A stretch of 64,000 nucleotides of DNA from a virus: the IMG/VR virus record IMGVR_UViG_3300030085_003750, positions 32,001 through 96,000 of that record. The stretch is one strand, 5' to 3'. Below the pieces are notes generated by a model. It made no database searches and had not been told where the DNA came from. It saw only the letters and a list, made by a program, of their open reading frames with translations. Both the position numbers and the translations under genes were made by a program. Every line of letters begins with the position of its first letter. Within the stretch, counting starts at the first letter, position 1. Shown here one piece after another: positions 33,446 to 49,309 of this stretch.

Positions 33446-33880
33446 ATGAAAAAGTCAGAATTAAAACAACTTATTAAACCCATTGTTGAAGAGTGTGTGA
33501 AAGACGCACTTCTTACAAGTGGTCTTTTAACGTCAGTTATATCTGAGGTTGTGGCAGGTGTTCAGAAGGGACTCGTTACAGAGCAGGTGGAAACTAAGGA
33601 ACCTGCTGTTCAAGAACAAAATACTATTTCCGAGGAAGAAAAAAGAAAAATTTTGGAAAACAAAAAGAAATTATTAGATGCTATCGGAACTTCTTCTTAT
33701 AATGGAGTTGATGTTTTCGAAGGCACGAAACCTCTTAAAAAGGGCGGTAATGCTAATAAAGGAAAAGGTGGATACAGTCCTTTTGAGGGAGTAGACCCCA
33801 ACAATCCAGGGGTAAACATAGACAAACTTACAAGCAATCTTGGCGGGATTTGGAAGAAACTTGCCGAGGGTAAAAAATAA
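33446..33880 (+). CDS. Hypothetical prohead core/internal protein
   Basis: N-terminus MKKSELKQLIKPIVEE is similar to that of the 27294 ORF. Confidence 0.45.
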   Translation: MKKSELKQLIKPIVEECVKDALLTSGLLTSVISEVVAGVQKGLVTEQVETKEPAVQEQNTISEEEKRKILENKKKLLDAIGTSSYNGVDVFEGTKPLKKGGNANKGKGGYSPFEGVDPNNPGVNIDKLTSNLGGIWKKLAEGKK

Positions 33881-33895
33881 GAAAGGAAAATAAAA

Positions 33896-34153
33896 GTGAG
33901 AGACAAAGGTCTATTCGAAGAGAGAATTAGAAAGGGCGAATCTACGGAAGCATTCGTAAGACGAGCACTTCGCAAGTTAAAGAAAGAAGGAGTTATGAAT
34001 GACATTCGTGACCCTTCACGAGGTCATCATCTTTGCAGAGATATTTCAAAGAAATCGCTCCGCAAAAAACACAAAGAGATTCAAGCCGAGCGTCGTCGTT
34101 TCGCAGAGGCAGCGAGAAGAAGAAAACGACAACGACAAAAGCAAAATAGATAA
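33896..34153 (+). CDS. rpsU: Divergent ribosomal protein bS21-like protein
   Basis: 85 aa and very basic. IRKGESTEAFVRRALRKLKKEGVMNDIRD...KKSLRKKHK aligns by eye to the bS21 pattern VR.GES...ALRRFKR...K.G...E.R....KPS..RK.K. Its position after the prohead protease matches described phage bS21 loci. Confidence 0.65.
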   Translation: MRDKGLFEERIRKGESTEAFVRRALRKLKKEGVMNDIRDPSRGHHLCRDISKKSLRKKHKEIQAERRRFAEAARRRKRQRQKQNR

Positions 34154-34161
34154 CTATTTAG
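34153..34161 (+). promoter_or_regulatory. Putative late promoter (ACTATTTAG)
   Basis: Recurrent motif at the head of the fibre cassette. Confidence 0.5.
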
Positions 34162-34189
34162 TATAGTTTTATAACAGAGGACTTTTACA

Positions 34190-34954
34190 ATGGCAAGAAA
34201 TTATATCCTTGGCGGTTCGGCAGGTACCCAACTCCAAGCAGGAAAACCTTACTTCAAGAGAATCGTCAGAATTGATGGTACAGGAGGCGTCAACAGAAAT
34301 GCTGTTAACACCCTAAAACACCCAGATAGTGTTGGGTTCACTTGTGATATAACAGCAGGTGGGGAAATCACTTTTGACACGAGTTCATCTCCTTGGGTTG
34401 CCAGCGGCAACAGAAATAGTGGTGAATTACTCATGATTGAATTTCCAACAACTATGAGAAGTGTAGAGATTAATCTCGAAGAGTCTTGGGTGGCAGGTGT
34501 AAAGCAGGACGCAGGCGATGGAACTGTTAGATTGAAAGTTATGTTGACAGCACAAAGGTCAACAAATGGTCAGAAAACACATTTTTTTGATTCAGATGGA
34601 AATCCAGATGCTAACTCTCCCATCGCTCTACCAGTCGCCAATGCAAATTACATCGAAGTAATGCAGGGTGAGACGGCAACCATTTCTTCTAGAACAAAAG
34701 TTATCTTTATTCTTATTCAAAAGTTTGCAGGAGATAATATTCTCGCTCCTGCCTCTGGATTTGTCAACGGTCAAACCGCTTCGGGACATGCCGAAGATGC
34801 AGTATCTATCCTTATTACGGGTGTCCTTGACCATGAACCTACTTCAGGTGGTTCTCAGGCAGAGAATGAACCCAATTCAAAGGTTATTGAAGACGGCGGT
34901 GCCGATACACGAACACTTCGCAAGATTTGGGGTGCTGCTGACGGCATCGGTTGA
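34190..34954 (+). CDS. Hypothetical beta-rich structural/decoration protein
   Basis: 254-aa ORF downstream of the late motif; first gene of the fibre cassette. Confidence 0.5.
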   Translation: MARNYILGGSAGTQLQAGKPYFKRIVRIDGTGGVNRNAVNTLKHPDSVGFTCDITAGGEITFDTSSSPWVASGNRNSGELLMIEFPTTMRSVEINLEESWVAGVKQDAGDGTVRLKVMLTAQRSTNGQKTHFFDSDGNPDANSPIALPVANANYIEVMQGETATISSRTKVIFILIQKFAGDNILAPASGFVNGQTASGHAEDAVSILITGVLDHEPTSGGSQAENEPNSKVIEDGGADTRTLRKIWGAADGIG

Positions 34955-34964
34955 GGCATAAATC

Positions 34965-37304
34965 ATGTCTGGAAAATCGTTTAATCGTGCCAGAAGAACT
35001 GGAAAATCTTCCAACTCACTTGCAGTCGTTACAGACGAATTAATACAAGAAGTAGCAATAGCAATAGGACCAGGAGTTCAAGGACCAGCAGGTACGAATG
35101 GACACTCTGCTTATGAAATTGCAGTTATCGAGGGATTCGTTGGCACTCAACAGGAATGGTTAGCATCCTTGGTCGGCGATGACGGAGATACTGCTTTCGA
35201 AATAGCAGTTTCGAACGGGTTCCAGGGCACAGAGGCAGAATGGTTAGCGTCACTCATCGGCGCAGACGGTCCACAGGGCATTCAAGGTCCACAAGGAATT
35301 CAAGGTGACCAAGGTCCAGAAGGTCCAGAAGGTCCACAAGGTATTCAAGGTGACAAAGGAGATACTGGTGACCAAGGTCCACAAGGTATTCAGGGAATTG
35401 AAGGTCCACAAGGTGCTACTGGACCTCAAGGTATTCAAGGCGACAAAGGAGACACAGGTGACCAAGGTCCACAAGGACCACAAGGTATTCAAGGCGATAA
35501 AGGGGACCAAGGCGACACAGGCGACACGGGTGCTACAGGTCCACAAGGAATTGAAGGTCCACAAGGTGCTACTGGACCTCAAGGTCCACAGGGTGATAAA
35601 GGTGATACTGGCGACACAGGTGCCCAAGGACCAGTAGGTCCACAGGGACCGCAAGGCATTCAGGGCATTCAAGGCGATAAGGGCGACACTGGCGACACAG
35701 GTCCACAAGGACCGCAAGGGATTCAAGGTCCAGCAGGAGCAGATGGCGCTACTGGCGCTGACGGAGCGCAAGGAATTCAGGGTCCAACTGGTCCACAAGG
35801 ACCACAAGGTCCACAGGGATTGAAAGGTGACACTGGAGATACAGGTCCACAAGGACCAGAAGGACCAGAAGGTGCTCAAGGTCCACAAGGACCACAAGGT
35901 ATTCAAGGCGACAAAGGAGACACAGGAGACCAAGGTCCACAAGGTCCAGCAGGCGCAGACGGTGACGACGGTGTTGATGGTACTCAAGGTCCAGCAGGTC
36001 CGACAGGTCCAACGGGACCACAAGGACCACAAGGTGTTGCTGGTTCTGGTATAACCATGCAAGGTTCAGTTGCTACAATTAACGACTTACCTACTAATGG
36101 AAATTCACAAGGTGATGCTTATATTGTACAGGCAGATGATTCATTGCATATTTGGAATGGTAGTCAGTGGATTTCTGGCGGTTCAATTCAGGGTCCAGCA
36201 GGACCACAGGGTGCTCAAGGACCACAAGGTTTGACAGGACCACAAGGTCCACAGGGACTCAAGGGCGATACAGGTGACACTGGACCAGCGGGTGCCGACG
36301 GTGCTCAAGGTCCAACTGGTCCACAAGGACCACAAGGACCACAAGGTATTCAAGGCGATAAGGGTGACACTGGAGATACTGGTGCTCAAGGACCACAAGG
36401 TATTCAAGGTCCAGCGGGAAATGATGGAGCAGAAGGTCCAGAAGGTCCACAAGGACCAGCGGGTCCAACTGGCGCTCAAGGTCCAACTGGTGCCCAAGGT
36501 CCAGAGGGACCACAAGGTCCAGCAGGTCAAGACGGTGCTACTGGTGCAGATGGTGCCCAAGGAATCCAGGGTCCAGCAGGTCCACAAGGTCCAGCGGGTG
36601 ATGAAGGCGCACAGGGACCACAAGGAATCCAAGGTCCAGCAGGCGCTGATGGTGCAGAGGGACCACAAGGTCCACCAGGTCAAGACGGCGCTGACGGTGA
36701 TTCTGCTTACGAAATTGCAGTATCTAATGGTTTTTCAGGAACAGAACAGGAATGGTTAGATTCTTTGGAAGGACCAGCAGGACCAGCAACAGTAGCAGAC
36801 GTTCAATCTTATACTGTTACCGCCAACGCAGGGTCGAATGTCTCTGTAACTCTTACTCACAACAAAGGAGATTCAGATTATCTTGTGCAGATTATCGACC
36901 CGAACGGAGACAATCTCGTAGTTCCTTTCACCAGAACAGCAAACACGGTTGTGTTTTACTTTGGAACTGTCTCGAACACAATAGACTATACAGTATTAAT
37001 ATCTGGTGCAAATGGAACAACGATTTCGAATGCTGTTACCGCAGCAACAATAGAAGCAATTGCTGCCGCTTCTGCTTCACTACCAGAAATAAAGTCTTAT
37101 AACTTGACAGTAAATACGGGAACTGGAGTTTTTGCAACTCTTACTCATAACCTTGCAGTTACCAACTCTGACTATGTTGTTCAGATAATTGATTCAAGTA
37201 GAAACAATCTCGTGGTTCCGTTCACGAGAAATCAAAATGACGTAGTGTTTTACTTTGGAAATGTTACAACTCAACAAACTTACAAAGTTGTCATTATTCA
37301 TTAA
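34965..37304 (+). CDS. Collagen-like fibre protein
   Basis: Two long G-X-Y tracts ([12 protein letters not shown]), three SAYEIAV..GF.GT..EWL.SL-type repeats, a central GDAYIV...HIWNGSQW knuckle, and a duplicated C-terminal beta domain (THN...DY.VQIID...LVVPFTR). Confidence 0.9.
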
Positions 37305-37311
37305 AAAATTA

Positions 37312-37488
37312 TTTTTTGCCCCTCTAAATCCTCAAACAACAATCTATTAAAAAACCTTTTCTTTAACCTGATTTTTAGTCTAAGTAGACACAGGTGGGAG
37401 AGGTGTATCCTCTTGTCCATCTTGCTCAAACTTTTATAATGTAGGGTCAAAAATACTCACATGAAAAAACAAATAGGAGGATAAAATT
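37312..37488 (+). promoter_or_regulatory. Structured leader, copy 1 (promoter-like CTAAGTA, two hairpins, SD)
   Basis: Near-duplicate of 40912-41090 at a 3600-bp offset. Hairpins at 37392-37422 and 37439-37462, with compensatory changes between the copies. Confidence 0.75.
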
Positions 37489-40400
37489 TTGAGTAATAGA
37501 ATACAAATTTTAAACGCCACTGCTGACGATTTTGCGATGGAGGTAGTTTCTACCGTTCCTGTGAATGGTTCAGTTGGCGACCATGCAAACGGTCGCTTAG
37601 TAAAGTATGGCACGCACATGTACGTTTGGTGTAATCACCAGGGTATTTGGGCAAAGTTTGCAAACGTAAGCGACTTTACATCACTTGAAACGAGACTTTC
37701 ACAACAAGAAGATGCAAATGATGCTGACGTTTTGTCGCTTGAGGGAATTGATTCTTCACTAGAGACAAGAATATCCGAGGAAGAGTCTGCAATGCTTTCC
37801 GCAATTGCCTCAGAGGAAGCGAGAGCATCATCGCAAGAAGATTCTATTGAAACTAGAATTTCTTCAATGATTTCGGCAAGAGTAGAGGACGTATCTTCCG
37901 AAGCATCTTTGCAAGAAAGTTTAGTTACAAGCGTAAATATTGAAATATCCACAATTATCGCTGCAAGAATTTCAGCAGTTGATTCGCTCGAAGCAAGAGC
38001 AACTGCTGCCGAAACATCTTTGGAATCTAGATTGTCTAATGAGGAAGATGCAAAGGATGCGGGAGATTTGTCTCTTACACAAAGACTTTCTTCCGAAGAA
38101 GCACAAAGACTTGCAAGTGATTCATCTTTGTCTTCCGCTATCGCTGCGGAATCAGGAAGTAGAACATCTGCTGATTCTTCACTTGAAACTGCTATCTCAA
38201 CAGAAGAAGCGAGAATCAGTGCGATTCTTCATGCATCGACAGCAGACAAGGATTCATTTGCGGAGATTGTTACTCACATCAACGCAATTGATTTAGCGCA
38301 TGACACGCAGACTTCGACAGAGATTGCTTCACTTGCAGCGGATATCGCTTCAATGGAATCATCTTTGGAAGGCATTGACAATTCTGTTGAGACAAGATTA
38401 TCTAACGAAGAGGATGAAATGTCTTCAAAGGATTCTTCTCTTGAAGTTAGAATTGCAACAGAAGAGGGCGCTACAGTAACAAGTGATACTTCATTAGCAA
38501 CAAGGTTATCTTCAGAGGAATCGACAAGACTTGCTACTGATAACTCTATTGGAGGTAGACTCGGAACTGATGAATTGGCAAGAGCAAACGCAGATACCTC
38601 ACTTGATACGAGACTATCAAATGAAGAGGACACAATGTCGGCAGGTGACTTGTCACTTGAAACTTTACTTTCGGGAGATAGTGCGGATAAAACATCCGCA
38701 GATTCATCAATCGAAACAAGAATAGCAGATGAAGAGTCAGCAATGCTTTCAGCAGTTGCTTCGGAACAAGCAGAGAGAGTTACCGCTGACAGTTCAGTGG
38801 AATCTCTTGTTTCAACAGAGGAAGTTGCCAGAGAAGATGGCGATGTCTCACTAGAAACTAATATGCAGACAAACGAGACTATTAGAGCACTTGCAGATTC
38901 TTCTTTGGAGTCAAGACTTTCAAACGAAGAAGATAACTTTTCTACGGACAAGAGTTCAATTGAAACACGCCTTTCAATTGAGGAAGATGCAATGTCAGCA
39001 GAAGACTCTTCAGTCGAGACAAGATTCTCAAATGAAATCTCAACAGAGAAATCAAGAATTGACGAAATTCTCGACAGCGCAGACGCTGATAAAGACACTT
39101 TTGTTGAACTTGTCTCTTTCATTACAGAGTTCGATGTAGACGCAGACGACGCTTTGTCATCGTATCAATTGGTTATTGATTCAAGAATTTCAGCAGAAGA
39201 GTCAAACATGTCAGCGGGTGATTCATCGCTTGCAACGGAACTTGCTGCAAAGATTGTTGAAAGACAATCTGCTGTGACTTCACTAGAGAATAAGCACTCA
39301 GGTGAAATTTCGACACTTGGTTCTTCAGTTGATTCACTGGAGACAAGAGAGGAAGCAAGACACCTTAGAGTTGATTTCTCAAACAAGACAAGTTTTACGG
39401 TACTGCAAACTGATTTACCTTCAGGGTTTACTCCTGGCAACGGTTTGGTTCAGATATATCAAGAAGTAAGTTCTAATACTTATAGAAGACTTGTTTCGCC
39501 AATGAATTTTGACCCAACGACGGGCGAAATGACGTTTGATTTGGGTGTATCTGCTAAATCAGGTTTTGCTGTATTCTACTCCTTTGCAGGAGACGAGACA
39601 GACATGTCTTCTTCCAGTGGTCAACAAGCATCACCACCACCTCCAAGTTCTGGTTCAAGTTCTTATCCACAGTTCAAGATTACGGGTGCCAGCGCTTCTT
39701 GGGGTGCAAACGCAGGTGACAGTTCTTCCGTTACAGTTAATGTTACTGGGGTTACAGCGTCTAATGTTGACTCGTTTTTGAATTACACTGGAGATACGTT
39801 CTACTTGTCTGTTTATGGACAAACAACTTATTCATATTATGATATTGCAATTAGTCGCCGAGGAGTATCCTTTGTTTGGGCTTCTGATTATTCTTCATTC
39901 ACGATTAATTATGAGAATTTAAGTAACCAAACTTCGTATAGAACAACTACGACAGCGCCTTCAGGTTCTGCGTATCAAACGTCTCTCCTTTTCGGCACGT
40001 CTGCTGATAGCGCATACTTTAGAGCAACATTATATTTTGACTCAGTGTCGGGCGCACTTGTGCCTTATCCTTCCTCGGCAGGAGAGGTGCTTGATAGTGG
40101 AGACGATATCATTTTATCACCTCCATACATGTCTGGAACTGGAACTGCAACATATACAGCGACCGTTAATCAGGGTTACTATGTCTACCGAGGGGGCAAT
40201 AACTATAAAACCAGAACACTTCGAGGTCCAGAATGGGGATTCGATTTAACCGACTTGACTGGCGACACTGGTGGAAACAGACCAGTAAGAAACTGGTCGT
40301 ACAAGATAGGAGCACACACTACTACAGCAGGTCAGATTCGCTGGGAAGCACAAAATATATTTGACTCTACCACTGACGGCGCTTGGGCAGTTCACGTTAC

Positions 40401-40851
40401 TTCTGGTGGAACAGATTATTATTCAACAGGTTCTGCGATTAGTTCGAGTCATCACTTGTGGTCAGAGATTACTACAAACAGAACTCAATCTAATGTTATT
40501 AACAGATTTAGTGCGAACGTACATGACTCAATTTCGGCTACTGAGACATTGAAGTTAGGATGGTCAGATAGAACAAGTAGTACTCAGGTAAATCCTGATG
40601 CAGATACAATCGTTACAATGTATCTTGCTTCTCACGGTGCAACTGGTCAGCACCTTATTAATGACACGCACTATGCTTCCCCTCATACAACATATAACTG
40701 GGGTGCTAATACAAGTTATGCAACAGATATTAAGATTGTTATTGATACTTCAGACCAGTCTTATGAAATCTACAGGAATTCAAATGTCGGCGGTTCGCCA
40801 ACTTGGGTAGCAGTAGATAGAGCATATTTGTCTAATCAGGAAGTTAATTAA
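37489..40851 (+). CDS. Coiled-coil fibre paralog 1 with long Ser/Thr/Tyr-rich tip domain
   Basis: TTG start after AGGAGG. 18-residue-type repeats (DSSLETRLSNEE), two ADKD(S/T)F.E(I/L)V knuckles, a shared beta domain and a unique ~410-aa C-terminus. Confidence 0.8.
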   Translation: MSNRIQILNATADDFAMEVVSTVPVNGSVGDHANGRLVKYGTHMYVWCNHQGIWAKFANVSDFTSLETRLSQQEDANDADVLSLEGIDSSLETRISEEESAMLSAIASEEARASSQEDSIETRISSMISARVEDVSSEASLQESLVTSVNIEISTIIAARISAVDSLEARATAAETSLESRLSNEEDAKDAGDLSLTQRLSSEEAQRLASDSSLSSAIAAESGSRTSADSSLETAISTEEARISAILHASTADKDSFAEIVTHINAIDLAHDTQTSTEIASLAADIASMESSLEGIDNSVETRLSNEEDEMSSKDSSLEVRIATEEGATVTSDTSLATRLSSEESTRLATDNSIGGRLGTDELARANADTSLDTRLSNEEDTMSAGDLSLETLLSGDSADKTSADSSIETRIADEESAMLSAVASEQAERVTADSSVESLVSTEEVAREDGDVSLETNMQTNETIRALADSSLESRLSNEEDNFSTDKSSIETRLSIEEDAMSAEDSSVETRFSNEISTEKSRIDEILDSADADKDTFVELVSFITEFDVDADDALSSYQLVIDSRISAEESNMSAGDSSLATELAAKIVERQSAVTSLENKHSGEISTLGSSVDSLETREEARHLRVDFSNKTSFTVLQTDLPSGFTPGNGLVQIYQEVSSNTYRRLVSPMNFDPTTGEMTFDLGVSAKSGFAVFYSFAGDETDMSSSSGQQASPPPPSSGSSSYPQFKITGASASWGANAGDSSSVTVNVTGVTASNVDSFLNYTGDTFYLSVYGQTTYSYYDIAISRRGVSFVWASDYSSFTINYENLSNQTSYRTTTTAPSGSAYQTSLLFGTSADSAYFRATLYFDSVSGALVPYPSSAGEVLDSGDDIILSPPYMSGTGTATYTATVNQGYYVYRGGNNYKTRTLRGPEWGFDLTDLTGDTGGNRPVRNWSYKIGAHTTTAGQIRWEAQNIFDSTTDGAWAVHVTSGGTDYYSTGSAISSSHHLWSEITTNRTQSNVINRFSANVHDSISATETLKLGWSDRTSSTQVNPDADTIVTMYLASHGATGQHLINDTHYASPHTTYNWGANTSYATDIKIVIDTSDQSYEIYRNSNVGGSPTWVAVDRAYLSNQEVN

Positions 40852-40874
40852 TCTTACGATTTATTGCCTTTTTC

Positions 40875-40902
40875 GGGGTGCCTTCGGGCACCCCTTTTCT
40901 TT
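40875..40902 (+). terminator. Rho-independent terminator with UUCG loop
   Basis: GGGGTGCC-TTCG-GGCACCCC followed by TTTTCTTT. Confidence 0.85.
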
Positions 40903-40911
40903 AATTAATTT

Positions 40912-41090
40912 TTTTTTGCCCCTCTAAATCTTTAAACAACAATCTCAAAAAAAACCTATTCTTTATCTTTATTTCGAACCTAAATAAAGGCAGGTGGGAG
41001 AGGTTTATTCTCTTGTCCATCTTACTCAAGATTTTATAGTGGAGAGTCAAAAATACTCCCACATTTAACATATTTTAGGAGGATAAAACT
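40912..41090 (+). promoter_or_regulatory. Structured leader, copy 2 (promoter-like CTAAATA, two hairpins, SD)
   Basis: Hairpins at 40992-41022 and 41039-41062; homologous to copy 1. Confidence 0.75.
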
Positions 41091-44039
41091 TTGAGTAGAA
41101 TTAGTATTTTAAACGCTAGTGCAGAAGATTTTGCATTGGAAATTGTTTCATCAGCACCAGTTAATGGTTCTGTTGGAGATAACGAAAACGGTCGTCTTGT
41201 AAAGTACGGCACACACATTTATGTCTGGTGTGACCACCAGGGCATTTGGGCAAAGTTTGCAAATGTAAGTGATTTTACATCACTTGAGACAAGACTTTCC
41301 CAGCAGGAAGACGCAAACGACGCAGACGTTTTGTCACTTGAGGGAATTGATTCTTCATTGGAGTCAAGAATCTCATCAGAAGAAGTTGCTAGAGCATCTG
41401 CTATTACATCAGCAAATGCTAGAGCAGTTGCTATTGAAGGTTCACTTGAGTCTCGCCTCTCAACAGAGGAAGTTGCAAGAGAGGCAGATGTAGACGCAGA
41501 AGAGTCAAGAGCACTTATCGCAGAAGCATCAGTTGACGCAAAACTTTCAACAGCAAAATCTGACAGAATCGCAGCAGTTGATTCACTTCAGACAAGAGCA
41601 GAGGCAGCAGAGACTTCACTTGAGACTAGATTGTCAGTAGAAGAGTTTGCAAACTGGTCTGCTACTTTATATGATGGAACTGTACCTATTTCAGACGAAG
41701 AGTACCTTCGTGGTGCAATGGATTCTGCTATAGCGGCAGATATCGCTTCAGCAACTGCGGATAGAATAGCAGGGGATGCTTCACTTGAAACTGCCATCTC
41801 AACAGAAGAGGCAAGAATCAGTGCAATCCTTCACGCTTCTACAGCAGACAAGGACTCATTCGCAGAGATTGTTACTCACATCAACGCAATTGACTTGGCA
41901 CACGATACACAGACTTCAACAGAGATTGCTTCACTTGCAGCAGACATTGTTTCAATGGAATCATCTTTGGAAGGTATTGACGATTCATTGGAACTTCGAC
42001 TTTCGAACGAAGAAGACGCAATGGCATCAGGCGATGCTTCATTGACAACAAGATTGGCAACTGAAGAGGGTGCAATGGCATCAGGCGATGCTTCATTGAC
42101 AACAAGATTGGCATCAGAAGAATCAGCAAGACTTGCTGCTGATAATTCTCTTGGTGGAAGAATGGGCGTTGAAGAGGTTGCTATGGCATCAGATGATGCA
42201 TCAATCGAATCAAGACTTTCAACAGAGGAAGATGCAATGGCAGCAGGTGACTTGTCACTTGAAACATTGTTGTCTGGCGACGCTTCAGACAGAGCATCTG
42301 ACGATTCATCAATCGAGACAAGAATGTCCGAAGAAGAGTCAGCAATGCTTTCAGCAGTTGCTTCAGAAGAAGCAGAAAGAATTGCTGGAGATGCTTCAAT
42401 TGAGTTATTGATTTCAGCAGAAGAAGTTGCTAGAGCAGCAGCAGACGTTTCGTTGACAACAAGAATGTCAAACGAAGAGGACGCTATGGTTGCAGCAGAT
42501 GCTTCACTCGATTTGAGACTTTCAAGCGAAGAAGCAAACGAAGTAGCAGACAAGGGTTCCCTTGAGACACGTCTTTCAAACGAGGAAGATGCAATGTCAG
42601 CAGGCGACTCTTCAGTCGAGACAAGATTTTCAAATGAGGTCTCAACAGAAAAGTCAAGAATTGATGCAATTCTCGATTCAGCAGACGCTGACAAGGATAC
42701 ATTTGTAGAACTTGTTTCCTTTATTACAGAATTTGACGTAGACGCTGATGACCAGTTGGCATCTTATCAGGTGGTTATTGATTCAAGAATTTCAGCGGAA
42801 GAGTCGAACATGGCAGCAGGTGATGCTTCACTTGAAGCAGAACTTTCTTCAAAGATTGTTGAAAGACAGTCTGCGATTACTTCATTGGAAACAAAGCACT
42901 CTAATGAGATTTCTACACTCGCAGCATCAATTGATTCTGTCGAGGTTAGAGAAGAAAACAGACACCTTAGAGTTGACTTCGGTGGAACAACACCAGTTAC
43001 TTCATTCACAGTATCTGGTTCACAGTTCCCAGCAGGATTTAAGATGGATGAGCATGGTATGGTTCAGGTTTTCCAGGACATGGGAAGCAGTAAGTTCCGT
43101 CACTTGGTTGCACCAGTTGAGATTGACATGTCGTCTGGTAATGTTACAGTTCAACTTGGTTCGACAGCAAAGTCAGGTTTCGCAGTATTCTATATGTTTG
43201 CTGACGATGAAGGCGAGGTGAGTTCACCGAGCACAGCATCTGCTTTCCAACTTGGTGGATACGACGCATCAGAAGTCTATAGTCAGACTTCGCCTACTAC
43301 AGACCAAATTGGTTATACAATTTACATGAAGGATTATGTTAATCTTGACCAGTCTGGATATCCAACGTCAATTCACTCTATGGGTTATGACTTGGGCGCA
43401 GGCGCAGAGACTAAGTGGTATTACAAGCCTGATGGCAACAGCACTTACAGCAGTTACACATACACCTTTCAAGGATATGAAAGTGGATACGGCGGTGATG
43501 ATTTCAGCGCTAGTTCTATGACTGGATTGTCAGAGGGGGCAGAAGTTGCACTTTATGCCGAACTCTACGATGCAAGTGGCAACCTTGTTGCTACTGCTGG
43601 TTCAGCATCTGCTCCATTTTATGTAAATGCTCCAGCGGCATGGACAATGAGTTCGTATGCTTCAGGTATTACAGTATCACCAGGAACAGCAGACCACGGT
43701 CAGACAGTTGACGTAACTGTTACAGTTGACCTTGCAACAGCAAACGTATACAGCAGTTACTTGGAACTTAGTGGAAATAACGATTCTTACAACTACGGTT
43801 GGAATGGATATGACACGATGTGGGTGGCACAGGCATCAAGCGGTTCACCTAGTTCTTACGAGCAGGATTTGATTAATGGTTTCAACAATAATCTTTATAA
43901 TCCAAACAGTTATGCAAGTGCATCGTTCCCGAACAGCACTTTGCCTGCTGCTGGTACTTATAACTTTAATGTTGTCGCTACTAACGGTACTGCTCCGTCG
44001 TCACCGACAACGTTCCAGATTACAATTATTGTAGCATAA
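41091..44039 (+). CDS. Coiled-coil fibre paralog 2 with a different Ig-like, Tyr-rich tip
   Basis: TTG start. Same architecture as paralog 1 with an unrelated ~270-aa C-terminus. Confidence 0.8.
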   Translation: MSRISILNASAEDFALEIVSSAPVNGSVGDNENGRLVKYGTHIYVWCDHQGIWAKFANVSDFTSLETRLSQQEDANDADVLSLEGIDSSLESRISSEEVARASAITSANARAVAIEGSLESRLSTEEVAREADVDAEESRALIAEASVDAKLSTAKSDRIAAVDSLQTRAEAAETSLETRLSVEEFANWSATLYDGTVPISDEEYLRGAMDSAIAADIASATADRIAGDASLETAISTEEARISAILHASTADKDSFAEIVTHINAIDLAHDTQTSTEIASLAADIVSMESSLEGIDDSLELRLSNEEDAMASGDASLTTRLATEEGAMASGDASLTTRLASEESARLAADNSLGGRMGVEEVAMASDDASIESRLSTEEDAMAAGDLSLETLLSGDASDRASDDSSIETRMSEEESAMLSAVASEEAERIAGDASIELLISAEEVARAAADVSLTTRMSNEEDAMVAADASLDLRLSSEEANEVADKGSLETRLSNEEDAMSAGDSSVETRFSNEVSTEKSRIDAILDSADADKDTFVELVSFITEFDVDADDQLASYQVVIDSRISAEESNMAAGDASLEAELSSKIVERQSAITSLETKHSNEISTLAASIDSVEVREENRHLRVDFGGTTPVTSFTVSGSQFPAGFKMDEHGMVQVFQDMGSSKFRHLVAPVEIDMSSGNVTVQLGSTAKSGFAVFYMFADDEGEVSSPSTASAFQLGGYDASEVYSQTSPTTDQIGYTIYMKDYVNLDQSGYPTSIHSMGYDLGAGAETKWYYKPDGNSTYSSYTYTFQGYESGYGGDDFSASSMTGLSEGAEVALYAELYDASGNLVATAGSASAPFYVNAPAAWTMSSYASGITVSPGTADHGQTVDVTVTVDLATANVYSSYLELSGNNDSYNYGWNGYDTMWVAQASSGSPSSYEQDLINGFNNNLYNPNSYASASFPNSTLPAAGTYNFNVVATNGTAPSSPTTFQITIIVA

Positions 44040-44069
44040 AAAATTCAGTTTTTTAACTGATATATTTTA

Positions 44070-44101
44070 GGGGTGGTACCTTCGGGTACCCCCCGCTTTT
44101 T
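44070..44101 (+). terminator. Terminator-like hairpin with UUCG loop
   Basis: GGGG-T-GGTACC-TTCG-GGTACC-CCCC followed by GCTTTTT. Confidence 0.65.
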
Positions 44102-44154
44102 AGCGATTTTTATAATCGCAGTGTTTTTTACATTTAATAGGAGGATAAAAACAC

Positions 44155-46284
44155 ATGAGTAGAATTAGTATTTTAAACGCAAGCGCAAAGGATTTTGCAG
44201 TAGAAGTTGTAAGTTCTTTGCCATCAGGCACATCTCACGAAGATGGTCGCATTGTAAAGGCGATGAATGCACAGAACGAACCAGTACTTTACGTCTGGGA
44301 CGCATCATCACTTTCATGGATTGAATTCGGTAATGCTGCCGACCTTACATCACTTGAAACAAGACTTTCAAGCGAAGAAGTAAGTCAGGATGCTGACGTT
44401 GCTTCACTTGAAGGCATTGATTCATCACTTGAAACAAGAATCTCATCAGAGGAAGATGCTCGTGAAGCAGCAGTTTCAACTGAGAAGGCAAGAGCGGAAG
44501 GCGTAGAGTCTTCACTCGAAACAAGACTTTCAGAAGAAGAAGCGGCAAGAGCAGTTGATGTTGACGCTGAAGAGACAAGAGCAATCGCAGCAGAAGGTTC
44601 ACTTGATACAAAGATTTCTCAGGAAATTGTTGATAGAGAAGCAGACGTTTCATCAGAGGCATCAAGAGCAGAAGCAGCAGAAGACTCAATTGAACTTCGT
44701 CTTTCAAACGAGGAAGTTACAAGAGCAGCGGGCGATGCATCACTTACAACACGCCTTAGCGCAGAAGAAGTTGCAAGAGCAGCAGGCGATTCATCACTTG
44801 AGACACTTCTTTCAACAGAGGTTTCAAATAGAATTGCAGAAGACGGTTCACTTGAGACAGCAATCTCAGTAGAGATGTCGAGAGTAGACGCTATTCTTTC
44901 AGGCGCAGACGCAGACAAGGATTCATTCGCTGAAATCGTTACACTTGTTAACACAATCGACACAGATAACGACAACGCATTGGCAGCAGCAGTTGCTTCA
45001 ATCAACACACTCCGCTCTGACGCTGAGTCATCACTTGAAGCGATTGATACATCACTTGAGACTCGCCTCTCAGGAGAGGAAGTTGCTAGAGCAGCAGGCG
45101 ATTCATCACTTGAGACAAGAGTATCAAACGAGGAAGTTGCTCGTGCAGCAGCAGACGCATCACTCGATACACGTCTTTCAAACGAGGAAGACTCAAGAGC
45201 AGCAGGTGACTCTTCACTTGAGACTCGTCTTTCAAACGAAGAAGTTGCTAGAGCAGACGGTGACTCTTCTCTTACAACACGCCTCGGCGCAGAAGAAGTT
45301 GCTAGAGCAGCAGGTGACTCATCACTCGAATCTGACATCTCAACAGAGAAGGCAGCAAGAGAAGCAGCAGACTCATCACTTGAAACAAGACTTTCAACTG
45401 AAGAGGATGCTAGAGCAGCAGCAGTCTCAACAGAGAAGGCAGCAAGAGAGGCAGCAGACCTTTCACTCGAAACAAGAGTTGGTAATGAAGAGTCAGCACG
45501 TCAGGCAGGCGATGCTTCTTTGACAACAAGACTTTCAAATGAAGAAGTTGCGAGAGCAGCAGCAGATTCATCACTTGAGACAAGACTTTCAAATGAAGAA
45601 GTTGCTAGAGCATCAGACGTTTCATCACTTGAGACTCGTCTTTCAGGCGAAGAGGTTGCTAGAGCGGATGGTGATTCATCACTTGAGACAAGATTCTCAA
45701 ACGAGGTTTCAACAGAGAAGGCAAGAGTTGACGCAATTCTCGCTGGTTCATCTGCTGACAAGGATTCATTTGCAGAAATCGTTGCAGTTATCAACTCACT
45801 TGAGACAGATAACGACAGCAACTTTGCAGCACACGTTCTTTCAGTAACAACAAGAATCTCAGCAGAAGAGGTTGCAAGAGCAGCAGGCGACGCATCACTC
45901 GAAGCAGACATCTCATCAGAGGTTGTTGCTAGAGATGCTGCTATCGCTTCACTTGAGACAAACCACTCAGCGCTCATCGCAGCAGAAGATTCAGCAATCA
46001 ATTCACTTGAGGCAAGAGAGAACAACAGACACAACAAGATTGCGTTCTCAAACGTTGCATCACTTACAGTTGCTGGTTCATCATTCCCATCAGGGTTTGA
46101 CATGACTGACCACGGTATGATTCAGTTGTTCGAAGAAGATGGTTCAGGTAACCTTCACGCTTTGGTTGCTCCAATGGAAATTGACATGACAACAGGTGAT
46201 GTTACTTTCACATTTGAGTCAGCAATCTCAGGTGTTGCAGTCTTCTATTCATTCGCTGATGACGAAGGTACAGTAACAGTATAA
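44155..46284 (+). CDS. Coiled-coil fibre paralog 3, with no tip domain
   Basis: ATG start and the most regular repeats (SLETRLSNEEVARAAGDS). It ends right after the shared beta domain (VFYSFADDEGTVTV). Confidence 0.8.
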   Translation: MSRISILNASAKDFAVEVVSSLPSGTSHEDGRIVKAMNAQNEPVLYVWDASSLSWIEFGNAADLTSLETRLSSEEVSQDADVASLEGIDSSLETRISSEEDAREAAVSTEKARAEGVESSLETRLSEEEAARAVDVDAEETRAIAAEGSLDTKISQEIVDREADVSSEASRAEAAEDSIELRLSNEEVTRAAGDASLTTRLSAEEVARAAGDSSLETLLSTEVSNRIAEDGSLETAISVEMSRVDAILSGADADKDSFAEIVTLVNTIDTDNDNALAAAVASINTLRSDAESSLEAIDTSLETRLSGEEVARAAGDSSLETRVSNEEVARAAADASLDTRLSNEEDSRAAGDSSLETRLSNEEVARADGDSSLTTRLGAEEVARAAGDSSLESDISTEKAAREAADSSLETRLSTEEDARAAAVSTEKAAREAADLSLETRVGNEESARQAGDASLTTRLSNEEVARAAADSSLETRLSNEEVARASDVSSLETRLSGEEVARADGDSSLETRFSNEVSTEKARVDAILAGSSADKDSFAEIVAVINSLETDNDSNFAAHVLSVTTRISAEEVARAAGDASLEADISSEVVARDAAIASLETNHSALIAAEDSAINSLEARENNRHNKIAFSNVASLTVAGSSFPSGFDMTDHGMIQLFEEDGSGNLHALVAPMEIDMTTGDVTFTFESAISGVAVFYSFADDEGTVTV

Positions 46285-46327
46285 TTTGCCTTTAAGCAAC
46301 TATACAAATAAAAACTGAATAGTTTTT

Positions 46328-46355
46328 GGGGGGGGTTTTTACCCCCCTTTTTTTT
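46328..46355 (+). terminator. Rho-independent terminator
   Basis: G8-TTTTTA-C6-T8. Confidence 0.75.
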
Positions 46356-46389
46356 ATTCTATCAAAATTGGCGTTTCACGCTCTATAAG

Positions 46390-46398
46390 ACTATTTAT
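46390..46398 (+). promoter_or_regulatory. Putative late promoter (ACTATTTAT) for scaffold/capsid
   Basis: Recurrent motif located between a terminator and the scaffold SD. Confidence 0.6.
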
Positions 46399-46455
46399 TA
46401 AAGAAAAACCCCGACTTTTTCATAATTAACGCACTAAAGTGAGGAGAAAGACTAA

Positions 46456-47523
46456 ATGTCTAATTTACTAGAGCAAGCACTTGTTGACGCAAAGGCACTA
46501 AAAGAAGCGGCAGTCAAGAGTGCAGAAAATGAATTACTAGAGAAATATGCGGATGAAATGCGTTCAGCAGTTTCTCGTCTACTTGAGCAAGAAGAAGGAC
46601 AACTTGATGAAGAGATGGCAATGGGTACCATGTCCCCAGACATGGCATCACCTGCTTTCACTGATGGTGAAAGACTTTGCCCTTGCCCAGAAGCAGATGA
46701 ACCACAAGAGATTGACTTCGCTCAATTAAGAGCAGCAATCGAGGCAGAAGAAGAAGAAGCAGGAATGGATATGGGAATGTCTGACGAAGAACCTGCTTTA
46801 GAACCTGCTGGTGACGAAGAAGAATTAGAACTTCAGGAAGAAGAATTAGAACTTCAGGAAGAAGAAGAAATTTCACTTGGCGAAGAATTAGAAATCGTCG
46901 AAGAAGATGAAGAAATTAATCTCGAAACCCTTGAGATTGACCACCAACCAGAGCGACAAGACATTATTTCTATTCCTTTGGAAGAAGTAGAAGAGGTAGA
47001 AGAAGTTGCGTTAACTCTTGACGAAGAGGAAACAGAGCAAGTTCAGACCCCTACTCTTACCGAGGAGGAAGAAATGATTCAAACTCTCACAGCACGCAAT
47101 GCGGAGTTGGAAGAGGAAGTTGCTCAGTTGCAACGTCAAACACAGGGTTTTGATGTTCGACAGCAGAGATATCGTTCTGCTATCGACAAAATTACACAGC
47201 GACTTGCGGAGGTTAATCTCTCCAATGCTAAGTTGCTTTATACGAATCGCATTCTGAATAATGCCTCTTTGAATGAGCGACAAAGAAATGAAATTGTCGA
47301 GTCCATTACGGGTGCTGGTTCTGTTGAAGAAGCGAAAACAATTTTCGAGACACTTCAAAACACAATGTTGAGTAGCGAAACTCCTAAGAGGTCAGCACCA
47401 AATACATTGAGTGAAGCAGTAAAGAAGAGCGTTTCGCCATTTGCTTCAAGAGGAAATATCCCTCAGAAGCAGACAGATACATTCTCGAAGAGAATGCAGC
47501 AATTGGCTGGAATTAATAATTAA
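46456..47523 (+). CDS. Prohead scaffold/core protein (gp22-like)
   Basis: Very acidic coiled-coil protein directly upstream of the major capsid gene. Contains VNLSNAKLLYTN, C-terminal RMQQLAGI, and an internal 21-bp tandem duplication at 46816-46857. Confidence 0.75.
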   Translation: MSNLLEQALVDAKALKEAAVKSAENELLEKYADEMRSAVSRLLEQEEGQLDEEMAMGTMSPDMASPAFTDGERLCPCPEADEPQEIDFAQLRAAIEAEEEEAGMDMGMSDEEPALEPAGDEEELELQEEELELQEEEEISLGEELEIVEEDEEINLETLEIDHQPERQDIISIPLEEVEEVEEVALTLDEEETEQVQTPTLTEEEEMIQTLTARNAELEEEVAQLQRQTQGFDVRQQRYRSAIDKITQRLAEVNLSNAKLLYTNRILNNASLNERQRNEIVESITGAGSVEEAKTIFETLQNTMLSSETPKRSAPNTLSEAVKKSVSPFASRGNIPQKQTDTFSKRMQQLAGINN

Positions 47524-47554: not shown

Positions 47555-49309
47555 ATGTCTATTTTACAAAATCTTACAGAAGGTGTCGTTAATCGTGACC
47601 TCTCTAAGGAAGGTGAGGCTATTCTCAACAAGTGGGAAAAGACTGGTCTTCTCGAAGGTCTCGAAGGCGATTTCCACAGAAATCAAATGGCGGTTCTCCT
47701 TGAGAACCAGGCGAAGGAACTCCTTCGTGAATCAAACACAATGGCAGGCGGCGACGTAGAAGGGTTCGCAGCAGTTGCTTTCCCAATCGTTCGTCGTGTA
47801 TTCGGCGGTCTTTTGGCACAGAAACTCGTTTCTGTTCAACCAATGAGTCTTCCATCAGGTCTCGTTTTCTTCATGGACTTCGTGAAGCAAGCACCATCAG
47901 CATCTCGTGACGGTCAGTTGGCAGCAGAAGAACCATCAGTATACGGCGGTTCCAAGGTTGCTAAGGGAATTCTCGACGGTGTTAACTTGAACCCAGATGT
48001 TCTTCCTGCTCCTCAGTTCCAGAACCTTGTTCACGGACACTCAGCAGCAAGAGGTGTTCACTCATTTGGCGAAGACACTGCAATCACAGCAGCAGATACT
48101 GTTGTTCTTAACGGCGCAGTTTCAGACGCAGACGCTCTTTTGATTGACTTCGACGCTGACTTGCTTGCAATCACAGACAGTTCACAAGTTAAAATCGTTG
48201 AGGTTGACCTTAGTGTAGCAGGCGACAATGGTTGTGCAGGTCACCCACTTAATGGCACGGGCGACTTGAGAAGACTTATCGGTAAGGACGCTCGTCACGT
48301 ATCAGCAGGTACAGTTACAGCGGCAAGCGGTGCAGTTACTCAGTTTAATGTTGTTCGTCGTTTGAGCAAGATTGAGGGTACAACTCTTACTCTTTTCCTT
48401 TTGGGCGCAGCAGGTGCTCCAGCAATCGCTAAACCAGGTGCAGGTGTTGAGCACTTCATCGAATACGCTATGGCAGACAACATCACAGAGGGCGGTGCTC
48501 TTGGTGCAGTTGTTGGTTCAGAGGCATGGGAGATGGAAGGTTCATCAGCACTTCCTGAAATCGCAATCAAGGTTGATTCATCAGCAATCACTGCTGTTAC
48601 ACGTAAGTTGAAGGCGTCTTGGACACCAGAACTTGCTCAGGACTTGAATGCATATCACAACCTCGACGCAGAGGTTGAGTTGACTGGTATTCTTTCAGAG
48701 CAGATTGCTTTGGAAATCGACCAGGAAATTCTTTCAGACCTTATCGCAGGTGCTTCAGCATCTAAGTTGTACTGGTCACGTCGTCCAGGTCTTTTCGTTA
48801 ACCGATTGACTGGTGCTGACGCAACATCATTGGCTTCACCTCCTGACTTCACAGGTTCAGTAAGCGAATGGTACGAGACTCTCATTGAGACTATCAATGA
48901 CGTTTCAGCAGACATCCACAGAAAGACTCTTCGTGGTGGTGCTAACTTCTTGGTTTGTGGACCAGAGGTTGCTAACATCCTTGAGTTCACCAGTGGTTTC
49001 CGTGCATCAGTCACTCACGACGATGCAACTGGTTCAGTTGGTGCTGTTCAAATCGGTTCAATCAACAAGAAGTGGGACTTGCACGTAGACCCTTACTTCC
49101 CAAGAAATGTTATCCTTGTCGGTCGCAAGGGTGGTTCATTCCTTGAGAGTGGTTTCGTATACGCTCCTTACGTACCGTTGCAGGTTACTCCTACAATCTT
49201 CAACCAAGACGACTTCACTCCACGTAAGGCAGTGATGACTCGTTACGGTAAGAAGATGGTACGACCTGACATGTACGGTCTTGTTATCTGTCGTGACCTT
49301 GAGGGTTAA
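47555..49309 (+). CDS. gp23: Major capsid protein (T4 gp23-like)
   Basis: VSVQPMSLPSGLVF, TRKLKASWTPELAQDLNAYH, EIDQEI, YAPYVPLQ and MTRYG. Confidence 0.96.
   Translation: MSILQNLTEGVVNRDLSKEGEAILNKWEKTGLLEGLEGDFHRNQMAVLLENQAKELLRESNTMAGGDVEGFAAVAFPIVRRVFGGLLAQKLVSVQPMSLPSGLVFFMDFVKQAPSASRDGQLAAEEPSVYGGSKVAKGILDGVNLNPDVLPAPQFQNLVHGHSAARGVHSFGEDTAITAADTVVLNGAVSDADALLIDFDADLLAITDSSQVKIVEVDLSVAGDNGCAGHPLNGTGDLRRLIGKDARHVSAGTVTAASGAVTQFNVVRRLSKIEGTTLTLFLLGAAGAPAIAKPGAGVEHFIEYAMADNITEGGALGAVVGSEAWEMEGSSALPEIAIKVDSSAITAVTRKLKASWTPELAQDLNAYHNLDAEVELTGILSEQIALEIDQEILSDLIAGASASKLYWSRRPGLFVNRLTGADATSLASPPDFTGSVSEWYETLIETINDVSADIHRKTLRGGANFLVCGPEVANILEFTSGFRASVTHDDATGSVGAVQIGSINKKWDLHVDPYFPRNVILVGRKGGSFLESGFVYAPYVPLQVTPTIFNQDDFTPRKAVMTRYGKKMVRPDMYGLVICRDLEG

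What the first reader, a model, noticed from the sequence alone, without database searches (positions are those of the whole stretch)
37489..46284. Three in-register coiled-coil fibre paralogs with different tips: candidate heterotrimeric, mix-and-match fibre system
Seen: three tandem paralogs share an N-terminal domain, an 18-residue-type repeat shaft and a C-terminal beta domain. Counting codons from the first Ser of SLETRL, the landmarks are co-linear. The first D of knuckle 1 (ADKD) is at +188/+189/+188, knuckle 2 at +469/+470/+469, and the His opening the beta domain at +560/+561/+560. This holds despite heavy divergence, a tandem-repeat structure that should expand and contract easily, and a non-repeat replacement in paralog 2 (FANWSATLYDGTVPISDEEYLRGAM) that changes length by only one residue. 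After the shared domain, paralog 1 has a ~410-aa tip, paralog 2 an unrelated ~270-aa tip, and paralog 3 none. Inference: shaft length is under selection, as expected if the chains co-assemble into one ~80-nm trimer (560 residues at ~0.15 nm). A tipless chain could dilute or mix two adhesin tips and give heterogeneous virions. The cassette sits inside the head module, so these may be head fibres.
Basis: partly seen in the sequence, partly recalled or inferred. Interest (0 to 1): 0.85.

Follow-up and report, generated by a model that had tools for sequence, protein, structure and literature searches.

The report
Length-matched phage fibre gene set
A marine T4-like phage carries three related genes for long coiled-coil fibres, two with sticky tips and one without; their shafts are kept at the same length in most related phages, probably because separate three-chain fibres share one docking site, not because the chains mix.

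Summary
The three proteins (1120, 982 and 709 aa) are co-linear: landmarks lie at +188/189/188, +469/470/469 and +560/561/560.

They belong to an undescribed fibre family with no Pfam or PHROG name. The phage is an uncultured far-T4 myovirus.

Ten related cassettes extend the pattern:
- A tipless gene is always last and always starts with ATG. The 17 tipped genes all start with TTG.
- Shaft segment lengths differ between genomes (171/225, 171/236, 182/236, 211/250 aa). Seven of ten genomes match within the genome and an eighth nearly does, with indels at the same positions.
- Two genomes break the rule: one has a tipless chain 36 aa shorter, the other a tipped chain about 119 aa shorter than its neighbour.
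- Trees show a mosaic. The N, knuckle and C domains split by type (tipless clade 100/100). The shafts group by genome, which indicates concerted evolution.

A homotrimer model of the tipless C-part scores 0.81 against 0.00 for controls.

Length coupling is therefore real.

My best reading is separate homotrimers that share one anchor, with shafts homogenised by recombination. Where they sit on the virion is unresolved.

The parts
34190..34954 (+). p254, a 254-aa beta-rich protein that always accompanies the fibre cassette (possible adaptor or assembly factor)
   Evidence: Homologues lie upstream of the fibres in L005, L165, L168, L170, L172 and L173. An HMM built from them finds none in the other ~75 MCP-related loci. 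No Pfam or PHROG hit. The AF2 model is poor, pLDDT 48. Codon bias is weak, ENC 48.8.
34965..37304 (+). Gene X: a collagen-like fibre (779 aa) with an MSGKS N-peptide and two small C-terminal beta domains
   Evidence: Pfam Collagen 2.5e-66. Orthologues keep the N-peptide and the beta domain, but the collagen stalk ranges from none (99-110 aa proteins in L005, L170, L173) to ~600 aa.
37305..37488 (+). Leader of fibre gene 1; a related ~180-nt leader precedes gene 2 (40905-41090)
   Evidence: Shared blocks TTTTTTGCCCCTCTAAATC... and GGTGGGAGAGGT..TCTCTTGTCCATCTT are read directly. Not analysed further.
37489..40851 (+). Fibre paralog 1 (tip type A), 1120 aa, TTG start. N-domain 37489-37680; shaft-1 37681-38193; knuckle 1 38194-38358; shaft-2 38359-39033; knuckle 2 39034-39183; shaft-3 39184-39348; C beta domain 39349-39612; Ser/Pro linker plus tip 39613-40848
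   Evidence: The tip model (pLDDT 74) is a string of beta-sandwiches with only generic Ig-like matches. Tip A is shared by 20 family members. P0011 has a 97% identical core, a 58% identical tip and an identical last 45 aa.
40875..40899 (+). GC-rich hairpin plus T-run after gene 1 (terminator-like)
   Evidence: GGGGTGCCTTCGGGCACCCC followed by TTTTC, read.
41091..44039 (+). Fibre paralog 2 (tip type B), 982 aa, TTG start. Non-repeat insert FANWSATLYDGTVPISDEEYLRGAM at 41646-41723
   Evidence: The same insert occurs in P0013, which carries a type A tip.
44070..44101 (+). GC-rich hairpin plus T-run after gene 2 (terminator-like)
   Evidence: GGGGTGGTACCTTCGGGTACCCCCC followed by GCTTTTT, read.
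44155..46284 (+). Fibre paralog 3 (tipless), 709 aa, ATG start. It ends 1 residue after the C beta domain
   Evidence: Orthologues are present as the last fibre gene in every complete cassette. ENC is 29.1, lower than the MCP's 33.3. Homotrimer model of residues 495-709: ipSAE 0.81, best control 0.00.
46456..47523 (+). Acidic scaffold-like protein (context; downstream border of the variable slot)
   Evidence: The sequence is Glu-rich and helical. It is conserved next to the MCP in ~70 relatives.
47555..49309 (+). gp23-type major capsid protein (context)
   Evidence: Pfam Gp23 1.7e-69; PHROG 138.

Best explanation
The region is an accessory fibre module of an uncultured marine far-T4 myovirus. 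The module comprises p254, a collagen-like MSGKS protein, one or two adhesin-tipped fibres, and one tipless fibre.

Each fibre gene most likely makes its own parallel homotrimer. Each has a ~65-residue N-terminal anchor and a ~560-residue alpha-helical coiled coil with an 18-residue (18/5) repeat. Two conserved non-repeat 'knuckles' interrupt the coil, and an ~88-residue trimeric beta cap ends it. In the tipped forms a flexible Ser/Pro linker carries a string of beta-sandwich adhesin domains.

The first ~20 residues are shared by all types, so the fibres probably dock at the same kind of site on the virion. The mixture on a particle would then be set by expression. Tipless genes have an ATG start and strong codon bias, so they should be abundant. 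Tipped genes have a TTG start, so they should be rarer.

Shaft lengths are kept alike because shaft segments are exchanged between the co-resident genes (concerted evolution), probably with selection for equal reach. The anchor, knuckle and cap sequences stay type-specific. Tips are swapped between phages as cassettes.

Shown: the anatomy, the family, the length pattern, the mosaic phylogeny and the start-codon rule. Modelled only: the trimer. Inferred: the shared docking site, the expression ratio, the adhesin role and the selection for equal reach.
For: - Anatomy and co-linearity.
- Trimer: ipSAE 0.81 against a best control of 0.00 (3 controls). The mark was reached by 20 of 30 solved pairs and 1 of 23 single chains. 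The runs agree in at least 90% of contacts and pLDDT is at least 88. Contacts recur every 3-4 residues (34 steps over 122 residues, 3.59 per step), and the C-domain makes inter-chain strand contacts.
- Ten cassettes: the tipless gene is always present and always last. Tips fall into families A, B and C, in the order A-B-tipless.
- Segment lengths: matched within WIN, L174, L175, L176, L170, L168 and L165, although 171/225, 171/236, 182/236 and 211/250 occur between genomes. Indels sit at the same alignment positions in both types.
- Trees: on the N+K1+K2+C columns the tipless proteins form one clade (100/100, in 100% of bootstrap trees). On the shaft columns the same label needs 6 changes (no better than shuffled) and rows group by genome: L165 trio 98/99, L170 pair 86/91.
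- Region identities agree: within-genome tipped vs tipless shafts are 0.44-0.47 identical, against 0.28-0.34 for tipped orthologues.
- Start codons: 17 of 17 tipped genes use TTG and 11 of 11 tipless genes use ATG, each with its own conserved spacer. The tipless gene has the lowest ENC in 5 of 5 genomes.
- Tip exchange: P0011 has a 97% identical core, a 58% identical tip and a 100% identical last 45 aa. P0012 has a 36% identical core and a 58% identical tip.
- Unmatched lengths are tolerated in L005 and L172. This fits independent trimers.
Against: - No experiment or homology shows the oligomeric state, the composition or the docking site.
- The single complex job tested only the homotrimer, so hetero- and homotrimers were not compared.
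- The always-present tipless partner, the matched indels and the conserved start-codon asymmetry are also what a heterotrimer with fixed stoichiometry would predict.
- Type-specific residues at the modelled C-domain interface are conservative changes (K/R, L/F, F/M, I/V), so they do not exclude mixing.
- Shaft grouping by genome could be inflated by shared amino-acid composition; IQ-TREE flagged four rows.
- Why separate fibres would need equal length is not explained by any data here.
Confidence: 0.5

Rival explanations
1. Heterotrimer. Tipped and tipless chains co-assemble in register into one fibre. The number of adhesin tips per fibre is set by the TTG/ATG expression ratio.
For: Length and indel positions are matched between two ancient paralog types in seven of ten genomes and nearly matched in an eighth (L173), across four length classes. 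Shafts co-vary within genomes. A tipless gene is present in every cassette. The start-codon asymmetry is conserved. Interface differences between the types are conservative.
Against: In L005 the tipless shaft-2 is 36 aa shorter than its partner's. In L172 one tipped shaft-2 is 106 aa while its neighbour's is at least 143 aa. Paralog 2 and P0013 carry a Pro/Gly/Trp insert where their partners are helical. The N-domains of the two types differ by a 3-residue and a 5-residue indel. The N, knuckle and C domains do not co-vary within genomes, although they would be in contact. The same length is conserved across phages whose proteins cannot meet. From my own knowledge, the characterised phage fibres I know of are homotrimers.
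Confidence: 0.22
2. Geometric ruler. The fibres are homotrimers fixed to the virion at both ends or packed side by side, for example folded along the tail or capsid. Particle geometry then sets the shaft length and the knuckle positions, and all paralogs must follow it.
For: Two dominant length classes (545/546 and 614 residues from N-domain to C-domain) occur across many 50%-identity clusters. Shaft-3 is 55 residues in every sequence, and the knuckle positions move together in all co-resident paralogs. Indels come in coiled-coil quanta: 11, 25, 36 and 40 residues.
Against: There is no evidence that the C-domain binds the virion. The tipped forms carry their adhesin beyond the C-domain on a flexible linker, which suggests a free distal end. 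The unmatched L005 and L172 cases argue against a strict ruler. Tail or capsid dimensions of the longer-shaft phages could not be obtained.
Confidence: 0.13
3. Neutral by-product. Equal lengths reflect only gene conversion between tandem paralogs plus a low indel rate in this fold, with no selection on relative length.
For: Shaft trees group by genome. Matched indels share their position and part of their sequence. Unmatched deletions exist.
Against: There are no recent conversion tracts: the longest exact nucleotide matches between the window's paralogs are 17-32 nt. Co-resident shafts have diverged to ~45% identity with almost no net indels, while comparably diverged shafts in different genomes differ by one or two large indels. 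Conversion would also have had to skip N, K1, K2 and C repeatedly.
Confidence: 0.15

Closest known systems
T4 fibritin (Wac) collar/whisker fibre (comparison from my own knowledge and the abstract of PMC3797505, listed)
   Same: It is a parallel trimeric coiled-coil fibre with a short N-terminal virion anchor, a segmented shaft with non-helical interruptions and a small C-terminal trimerisation domain. The C-terminal domains are swapped as modules among T4-like phages. Like the tipless form, fibritin has no receptor-binding tip. The host phage here has T4-type portal, protease, MCP and gp13 genes.
   Different: There is no sequence relation: Pfam, which includes Fibritin_C, gives zero hits. 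The C-domain is an ~88-residue beta domain, not a ~30-residue foldon. The shaft has an 18-residue repeat. The genes lie between the protease and scaffold genes, not beside gp12/gp13. They come as 2-3 length-matched paralogs with adhesin tips.
phi29 gp8.5 head fibres and other head fibres, e.g. phage 7-7-1 (from my own knowledge; papers listed, not read)
   Same: They are dispensable trimeric fibres on the capsid. The head-module location and the capsid-like codon bias of the tipless gene would fit a many-copy head fibre.
   Different: There is no Pfam hit to the phi29 head-fibre family. The proteins here are far longer. No capsid-binding domain was identified, so the location is untested.
Multi-receptor-binding-protein phages whose spikes or fibres share an N-terminal anchor module, e.g. 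CBA120, G7C, K1-5/SP6 (from my own knowledge)
   Same: Several homotrimeric binding proteins with related N-termini and different distal domains are encoded side by side. The distal modules are exchanged horizontally (compare).
   Different: Those systems have no long length-matched shafts, no conserved tipless member, and no TTG/ATG start-codon rule.
18-residue (7+11) coiled-coil stalks and the 'ADKD' knuckle module of other phage fibres
   Same: The knuckle pattern ADKDSFA finds 359 relatives in IMG/VR, with 1-8 knuckles per protein. A phmmer search of 1.84 billion representatives finds 2567 proteins at E<=0.001. Weak tblastn hits fall on annotated tail fibre genes. Earlier scan notes describe 54-nt-repeat stalks in other phage fibres.
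   Different: Only this sub-family has the N-domain plus the C beta domain (13-14 ORFs among 164 loci) and the paralog set. The knuckle resembles beta-layer motifs such as IENKADKAD and MATKDD (PMC4786415), but the model runs a continuous helix through it.

Membership tests
T4 fibritin (Wac) | C-terminal foldon (Pfam Fibritin_C) and Wac-type N-terminal domain | tested here: not met
   The Pfam-A scan of all three proteins gave 0 families at E<=0.01. The PDB sequence search gave only a chance hit to mandelate dehydrogenase.
T4 fibritin (Wac) | Parallel trimeric coiled coil | tested here: met
   In silico only. Homotrimer of residues 495-709: ipSAE 0.81 against a best control of 0.00; contacts every 3-4 residues.
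phi29-type head fibre (gp8.5) | Sequence membership in the Pfam/PHROG head-fibre family | tested here: not met
   No Pfam family. The only PHROG hit is phrog_18671, of unknown function, for paralog 3.
phi29-type head fibre (gp8.5) | Attachment to the capsid shell | not testable with these tools
   Needs virion proteomics or cryo-EM. Gene position and codon bias are only hints.
Generic trimeric phage fibre with modular receptor-binding tip | N-terminal anchor, fibrous shaft, exchangeable distal domain | tested here: met
   Domain map. Three tip families on one core. Cassette exchange (97% core, 58% tip). The binding function itself was not tested.
alpha/beta coiled coil (beta-layer) element | A nonad/hexad insert that breaks the helices into a triangular beta-layer | tested here: inconclusive
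   The motif A-D-K-D-S/T-F resembles IENKADKAD and MATKDD. Shaft hydrophobicity peaks at periods 4.5, 6 and 9 rather than 3.6. However, the trimer model keeps regular 3-4 spacing through residues 532-542.
   Seven of ten cassettes match and L173 nearly does (a few small unmatched insertions). L005 (tipless 36 aa shorter) and L172 (106 vs at least 143 aa) do not match.
Paralogs at 50% identity would be expected to pass by likeness, so the comparison would not have been decisive.

The most novel reading that the evidence does not exclude
Tipped and tipless chains form mixed, in-register heterotrimers. Composition, and so the number and kind of adhesin tips per fibre, is tuned by a conserved TTG-versus-ATG start-codon rule. 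Shaft register is maintained by selection, through exchange of shaft segments between the genes. To my knowledge this would be the first heterotrimeric phage fibre, and a new way of generating virions that are heterogeneous in binding valency.
Probability: 0.2. Interest if true: 0.85.

Novelty: new variant of a known kind. Interest (0 to 1): 0.6.

Why it matters
The family is common in marine metagenomes but has no name in Pfam or PHROGs.

It shows an unusual evolutionary pattern in a structural protein. Ancient paralogs keep type-specific end and knuckle domains while their long shafts evolve in concert, and indels are copied between genes.

A strictly conserved weak-start/strong-start rule implies a controlled ratio of adhesin-bearing to bare fibres. 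If the ratio or the co-assembly is real, it is a simple genetic device for making mixed-valency virions.

The module also marks a hypervariable cargo slot in the head-gene block of far-T4 phages. That slot could be used to predict host-interaction genes in uncultured phages.

Tried and rejected
- Pfam and PHROG scans of the three fibres and of p254 gave nothing useful.
- PDB sequence searches with P0003 and with a knuckle profile gave only chance hits.
- Megablast of 16 kb against 50,697 phage records found no match. tblastn gave only weak coiled-coil hits to tail fibre genes.
- Tip A fold searches in PDB and BFVD gave only generic Ig-like matches with TM 0.12-0.18.
- The p254 structure model was too poor to search (pLDDT 48). 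The Atlas feature search scored below 0.85, so it gives leads only.
- I suspected homology between the fibre C-domain and the small beta domain of gene X. hhalign gave E = 0.087 and probability 0.7%, so I rejected it.
- Beta-layer reading of the knuckle: the model does not support it and I left it open.
- Recent gene conversion: the longest exact nucleotide matches are 17-32 nt, so none is recent.
- Type-specific interface residues as a bar to mixing: only conservative differences, so not discriminating.
- Test of shaft length against tail length: the records behind L165 and L170 are not held.
- A T4 late-promoter motif (TATAAATA) is absent from the fibre intergenic regions.
- A word-indexed search with the tipless C-part returned only tipped proteins, so tipless lengths could not be sampled that way.


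Full report
**1. What is there**

The window is part of a 145-kb IMG/VR virus record, about 80% complete. It encodes a T4-type large terminase, gp20 portal, S77 prohead protease, gp23 major capsid protein, gp13-like neck protein, sheath and tube. The nearest cultured capsid proteins are Flavobacterium phage immuto (47%), Microcystis phage Mel-JY01 and Rhodothermus phage RM378. No phage record matches the DNA.

The three ORFs of the finding exist as described. They are 37489-40851 (TTG, 1120 aa), 41091-44039 (TTG, 982 aa) and 44155-46284 (ATG, 709 aa), each behind AGGAGGA. The alignment has a single 1-residue shaft indel, at the non-repeat insert of paralog 2. After the shared C-domain, tips of 412, 270 and 0 residues follow.

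**2. Anatomy**

I divided the shared part into seven segments:
- an N-domain (~64 aa)
- shaft-1 (171 aa)
- knuckle 1 (55 aa)
- shaft-2 (225 aa)
- knuckle 2 (50 aa)
- shaft-3 (55 aa)
- a C beta domain (88 aa)

A three-copy model of residues 495-709 of the tipless protein passed the controlled test. ipSAE was 0.81 against a best control of 0.00. The mark was reached by 20 of 30 solved pairs and 1 of 23 single chains in the tool's calibration. The runs agree in at least 90% of contacts, and pLDDT is at least 88.

Contacts recur every 3 or 4 residues, 34 steps over 122 residues or 3.59 per step. This is the 18/5 periodicity of a nearly straight coiled coil. The contacts continue through ADKD. The C-domain makes inter-chain strand contacts. 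This is a model, not a measurement.

Only two of the five core layers per repeat are hydrophobic (the two Leu of SLETRL). That explains why the hydrophobicity spectrum peaks at 4.5, 6 and 9 rather than 3.6.

The ADKD motif resembles published beta-layer motifs (PMC4786415), but the model gives no support for a break there.

Tip A is joined by a Ser/Pro-rich linker. It models as several beta-sandwich domains with only generic Ig-like matches. This fits independently folding adhesin modules.

**3. The family and its module**

Neither Pfam nor PHROGs names these proteins. The knuckle is a widespread module: 359 relatives in IMG/VR with 1 to 8 copies per protein.

The combination of this N-domain and this C-domain defines a narrow sub-family. 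I recovered ten cassettes: the window, L005, L085 (partial), L165, L167 (two genes with broken frames), L168, L170, L172 (partial), L173, and L174-L176.

All lie between the protease/p144 genes and the acidic scaffold/MCP genes. In about 80 MCP relatives this interval ranges from 2.2 kb (empty) to 14 kb. Elsewhere it holds unrelated large proteins, some rich in LamG lectin domains. It is therefore a hypervariable cargo slot.

Within the sub-family the module is constant:
- **p254.** This protein is found only here.
- **Gene X.** It has an MSGKS N-peptide and one or two small beta domains. Its collagen stalk ranges from 0 to about 600 residues.
- **One or two tipped fibres.**
- **A tipless fibre**, always last.

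Tips fall into three families: A (20 members), B (8) and C (2). Three-gene cassettes have the order A, B, tipless.

**4. Length coupling**

Shaft-1 and shaft-2 lengths by cassette:

| Cassette | Shaft-1 / shaft-2 (aa) | Matched within genome? |
|---|---|---|
| WIN, L174, L175, L176 | 171/225 in all paralogs | yes |
| L170 | 171/236 in both | yes |
| L168 | 182/237 and 182/236 | yes |
| L165 | 211/250 in all three | yes |

Shaft-3 is 55 residues everywhere. The insertions (+11, +11, +25, +40, and a shared -4 in L173) sit at the same alignment positions in the tipped and tipless genes of a genome.

The N-domain indel signature and the domain tree show that tipped and tipless types separated before these phages did. 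The matched indels are therefore not inherited from one duplication per genome.

There are exceptions:
- In L005 the tipless shaft-2 is 189 residues, exactly two repeats short.
- In L172 the type A paralog has a 106-residue shaft-2. Its neighbour shows at least 143 residues before the contig ends.
- L173 has small unmatched insertions beside the knuckles.

Also, about 21 of 30 representatives from different phages share the same N-to-C span of 545/546 residues.

**5. Mosaic evolution**

A tree of the N, K1, K2 and C columns puts all seven tipless proteins in one clade (100/100, in 100% of bootstrap trees).

A tree of the shaft columns needs six changes for the same label, no better than shuffled labels. 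It groups rows by genome: the L165 trio at 98/99, the L170 pair at 86/91, and the L168/L170/L165 set at 97/100.

Region identities agree. Co-resident tipped and tipless shafts are 44-47% identical. Orthologous tipped shafts in other genomes are 28-34% identical. In the globular parts, orthologues are the closer pairs.

The shafts therefore evolve in concert within a genome while the end and knuckle domains keep their type. No exchange is recent: the longest exact nucleotide matches are 17-32 nt. Shared composition may inflate the shaft signal, but the shared indels are independent of it.

**6. Expression asymmetry**

All 17 tipped genes start with TTG behind TAGGAGGATAAAA(C/T)T. All 11 tipless genes start with ATG behind TAGGAGGATAAAAACAC.

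The tipless gene has the strongest codon bias in five of five genomes. In the window its ENC is 29.1, against 41.6 and 34.6 for its partners and 33.3 for the MCP. Internal DNA repeats may contribute to this low value.

Terminator-like hairpins follow genes 1 and 2. I infer that the tipless protein is made in excess.

**7. Tips are exchanged**

P0011 has a core 97% identical to paralog 1, a tip 58% identical, and a last 45 residues 100% identical. P0012 has a 36% identical core with a 58% identical tip. The non-repeat insert of paralog 2 recurs in P0013, which carries a type A tip. This is the usual behaviour of receptor-binding modules.

**8. Interpretation**

The data establish a length-coupled paralog set. 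They do not show co-assembly.

Four points weigh against an obligatory in-register heterotrimer:
- the two unmatched cassettes
- the helix-breaking insert that only paralog 2 carries
- the type-specific N-domains, which differ by indels
- the absence of within-genome co-variation in the very domains that would be in tightest contact

Three points favour it: the invariable presence of the tipless partner, the matched indels and the start-codon rule.

I rate the readings as follows:
- separate homotrimers sharing a docking site: 0.5
- a heterotrimer: about 0.2
- a geometric-ruler variant: 0.13
- a purely neutral by-product: 0.15

Where the fibres sit is open. The head-module slot and capsid-like codon bias hint at the head or neck. 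The phage has separate tail-fibre and baseplate genes elsewhere in the window. No homology decides the matter.

**9. Novelty**

Trimeric coiled-coil fibres with swappable tips are well known. To my knowledge three features have not been described. These are the tipless/tipped paralog set with matched shafts, the mosaic of concerted and type-specific segments, and the conserved start-codon rule. I class the finding as a new variant of a known kind, of moderate to good interest.

The scan had noted 18-residue coiled-coil stalks in fibres of other phages before, but not this paralog pattern.

Noticed in passing
window 33880-46456; loci L084-L163: The interval between the prohead protease/p144 genes and the scaffold/MCP genes is a hypervariable slot in this far-T4 family. 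It ranges from 2.2 kb (empty) to 14 kb and holds unrelated large proteins in different phages, some with 3-4 LamG lectin domains.
   Followed up: partly
window 37486-37491, 41088-41093, 44152-44157, and 25 genes in related loci: All 17 tipped fibre genes start with TTG and all 11 tipless genes start with ATG. Each group has its own conserved spacer after AGGAGG, across lineages whose proteins are only 30-55% identical.
   Followed up: yes
window 34965-37304; L005:9511-9810; L170:9486-9818; L173:5401-5724; L172:1304-1930: Gene X keeps an MSGKS N-peptide and a ~75-aa beta domain ending in ...YxVxI(V/I)H. Its collagen stalk varies from absent (99-110 aa proteins) to about 600 residues. This contrasts with the fixed-length coiled-coil fibres next to it.
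   Followed up: partly
window 34190-34954: p254 has an invariant N-terminus (MARNYILGG.A.TQLQAGKP.FKR) and was found only beside this fibre cassette. It has no known family and models poorly. It may be an adaptor or an assembly factor.
   Followed up: partly
window 37305-37488 and 40905-41090: Genes 1 and 2 share a ~180-nt leader with conserved blocks. Gene 3 has a different, shorter leader. Terminator-like hairpins lie at 40875-40899 and 44070-44101.
   Followed up: no
L167:9456-16328: In this close relative the first two fibre genes are each split over two frames: the N-part and the rest lie in different ORFs. This could be frameshifts, assembly errors or decaying genes. The tipless gene is intact.
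   Followed up: no
window 33896-34153 and the 85-87-aa genes of L165-L176: The small basic 85-aa gene that another note reads as bS21-like is conserved at the same position, just before p254, in nearly all relatives that carry the cassette.
   Followed up: no
L039:7643-14761: A 2372-aa protein on a 249-kb viral contig carries eight copies of the ADKD-type knuckle module at irregular spacing. The knuckle is therefore a general building block of long phage fibres.
   Followed up: no
L174:18333-19108 and L175:18340-19120: In two close relatives the gene after the 161-aa protein downstream of gp13 is a giant ORF (2615 and 1998 aa, weak Calx-beta hit). In the same position the window has a 274-aa gene.
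   Followed up: no
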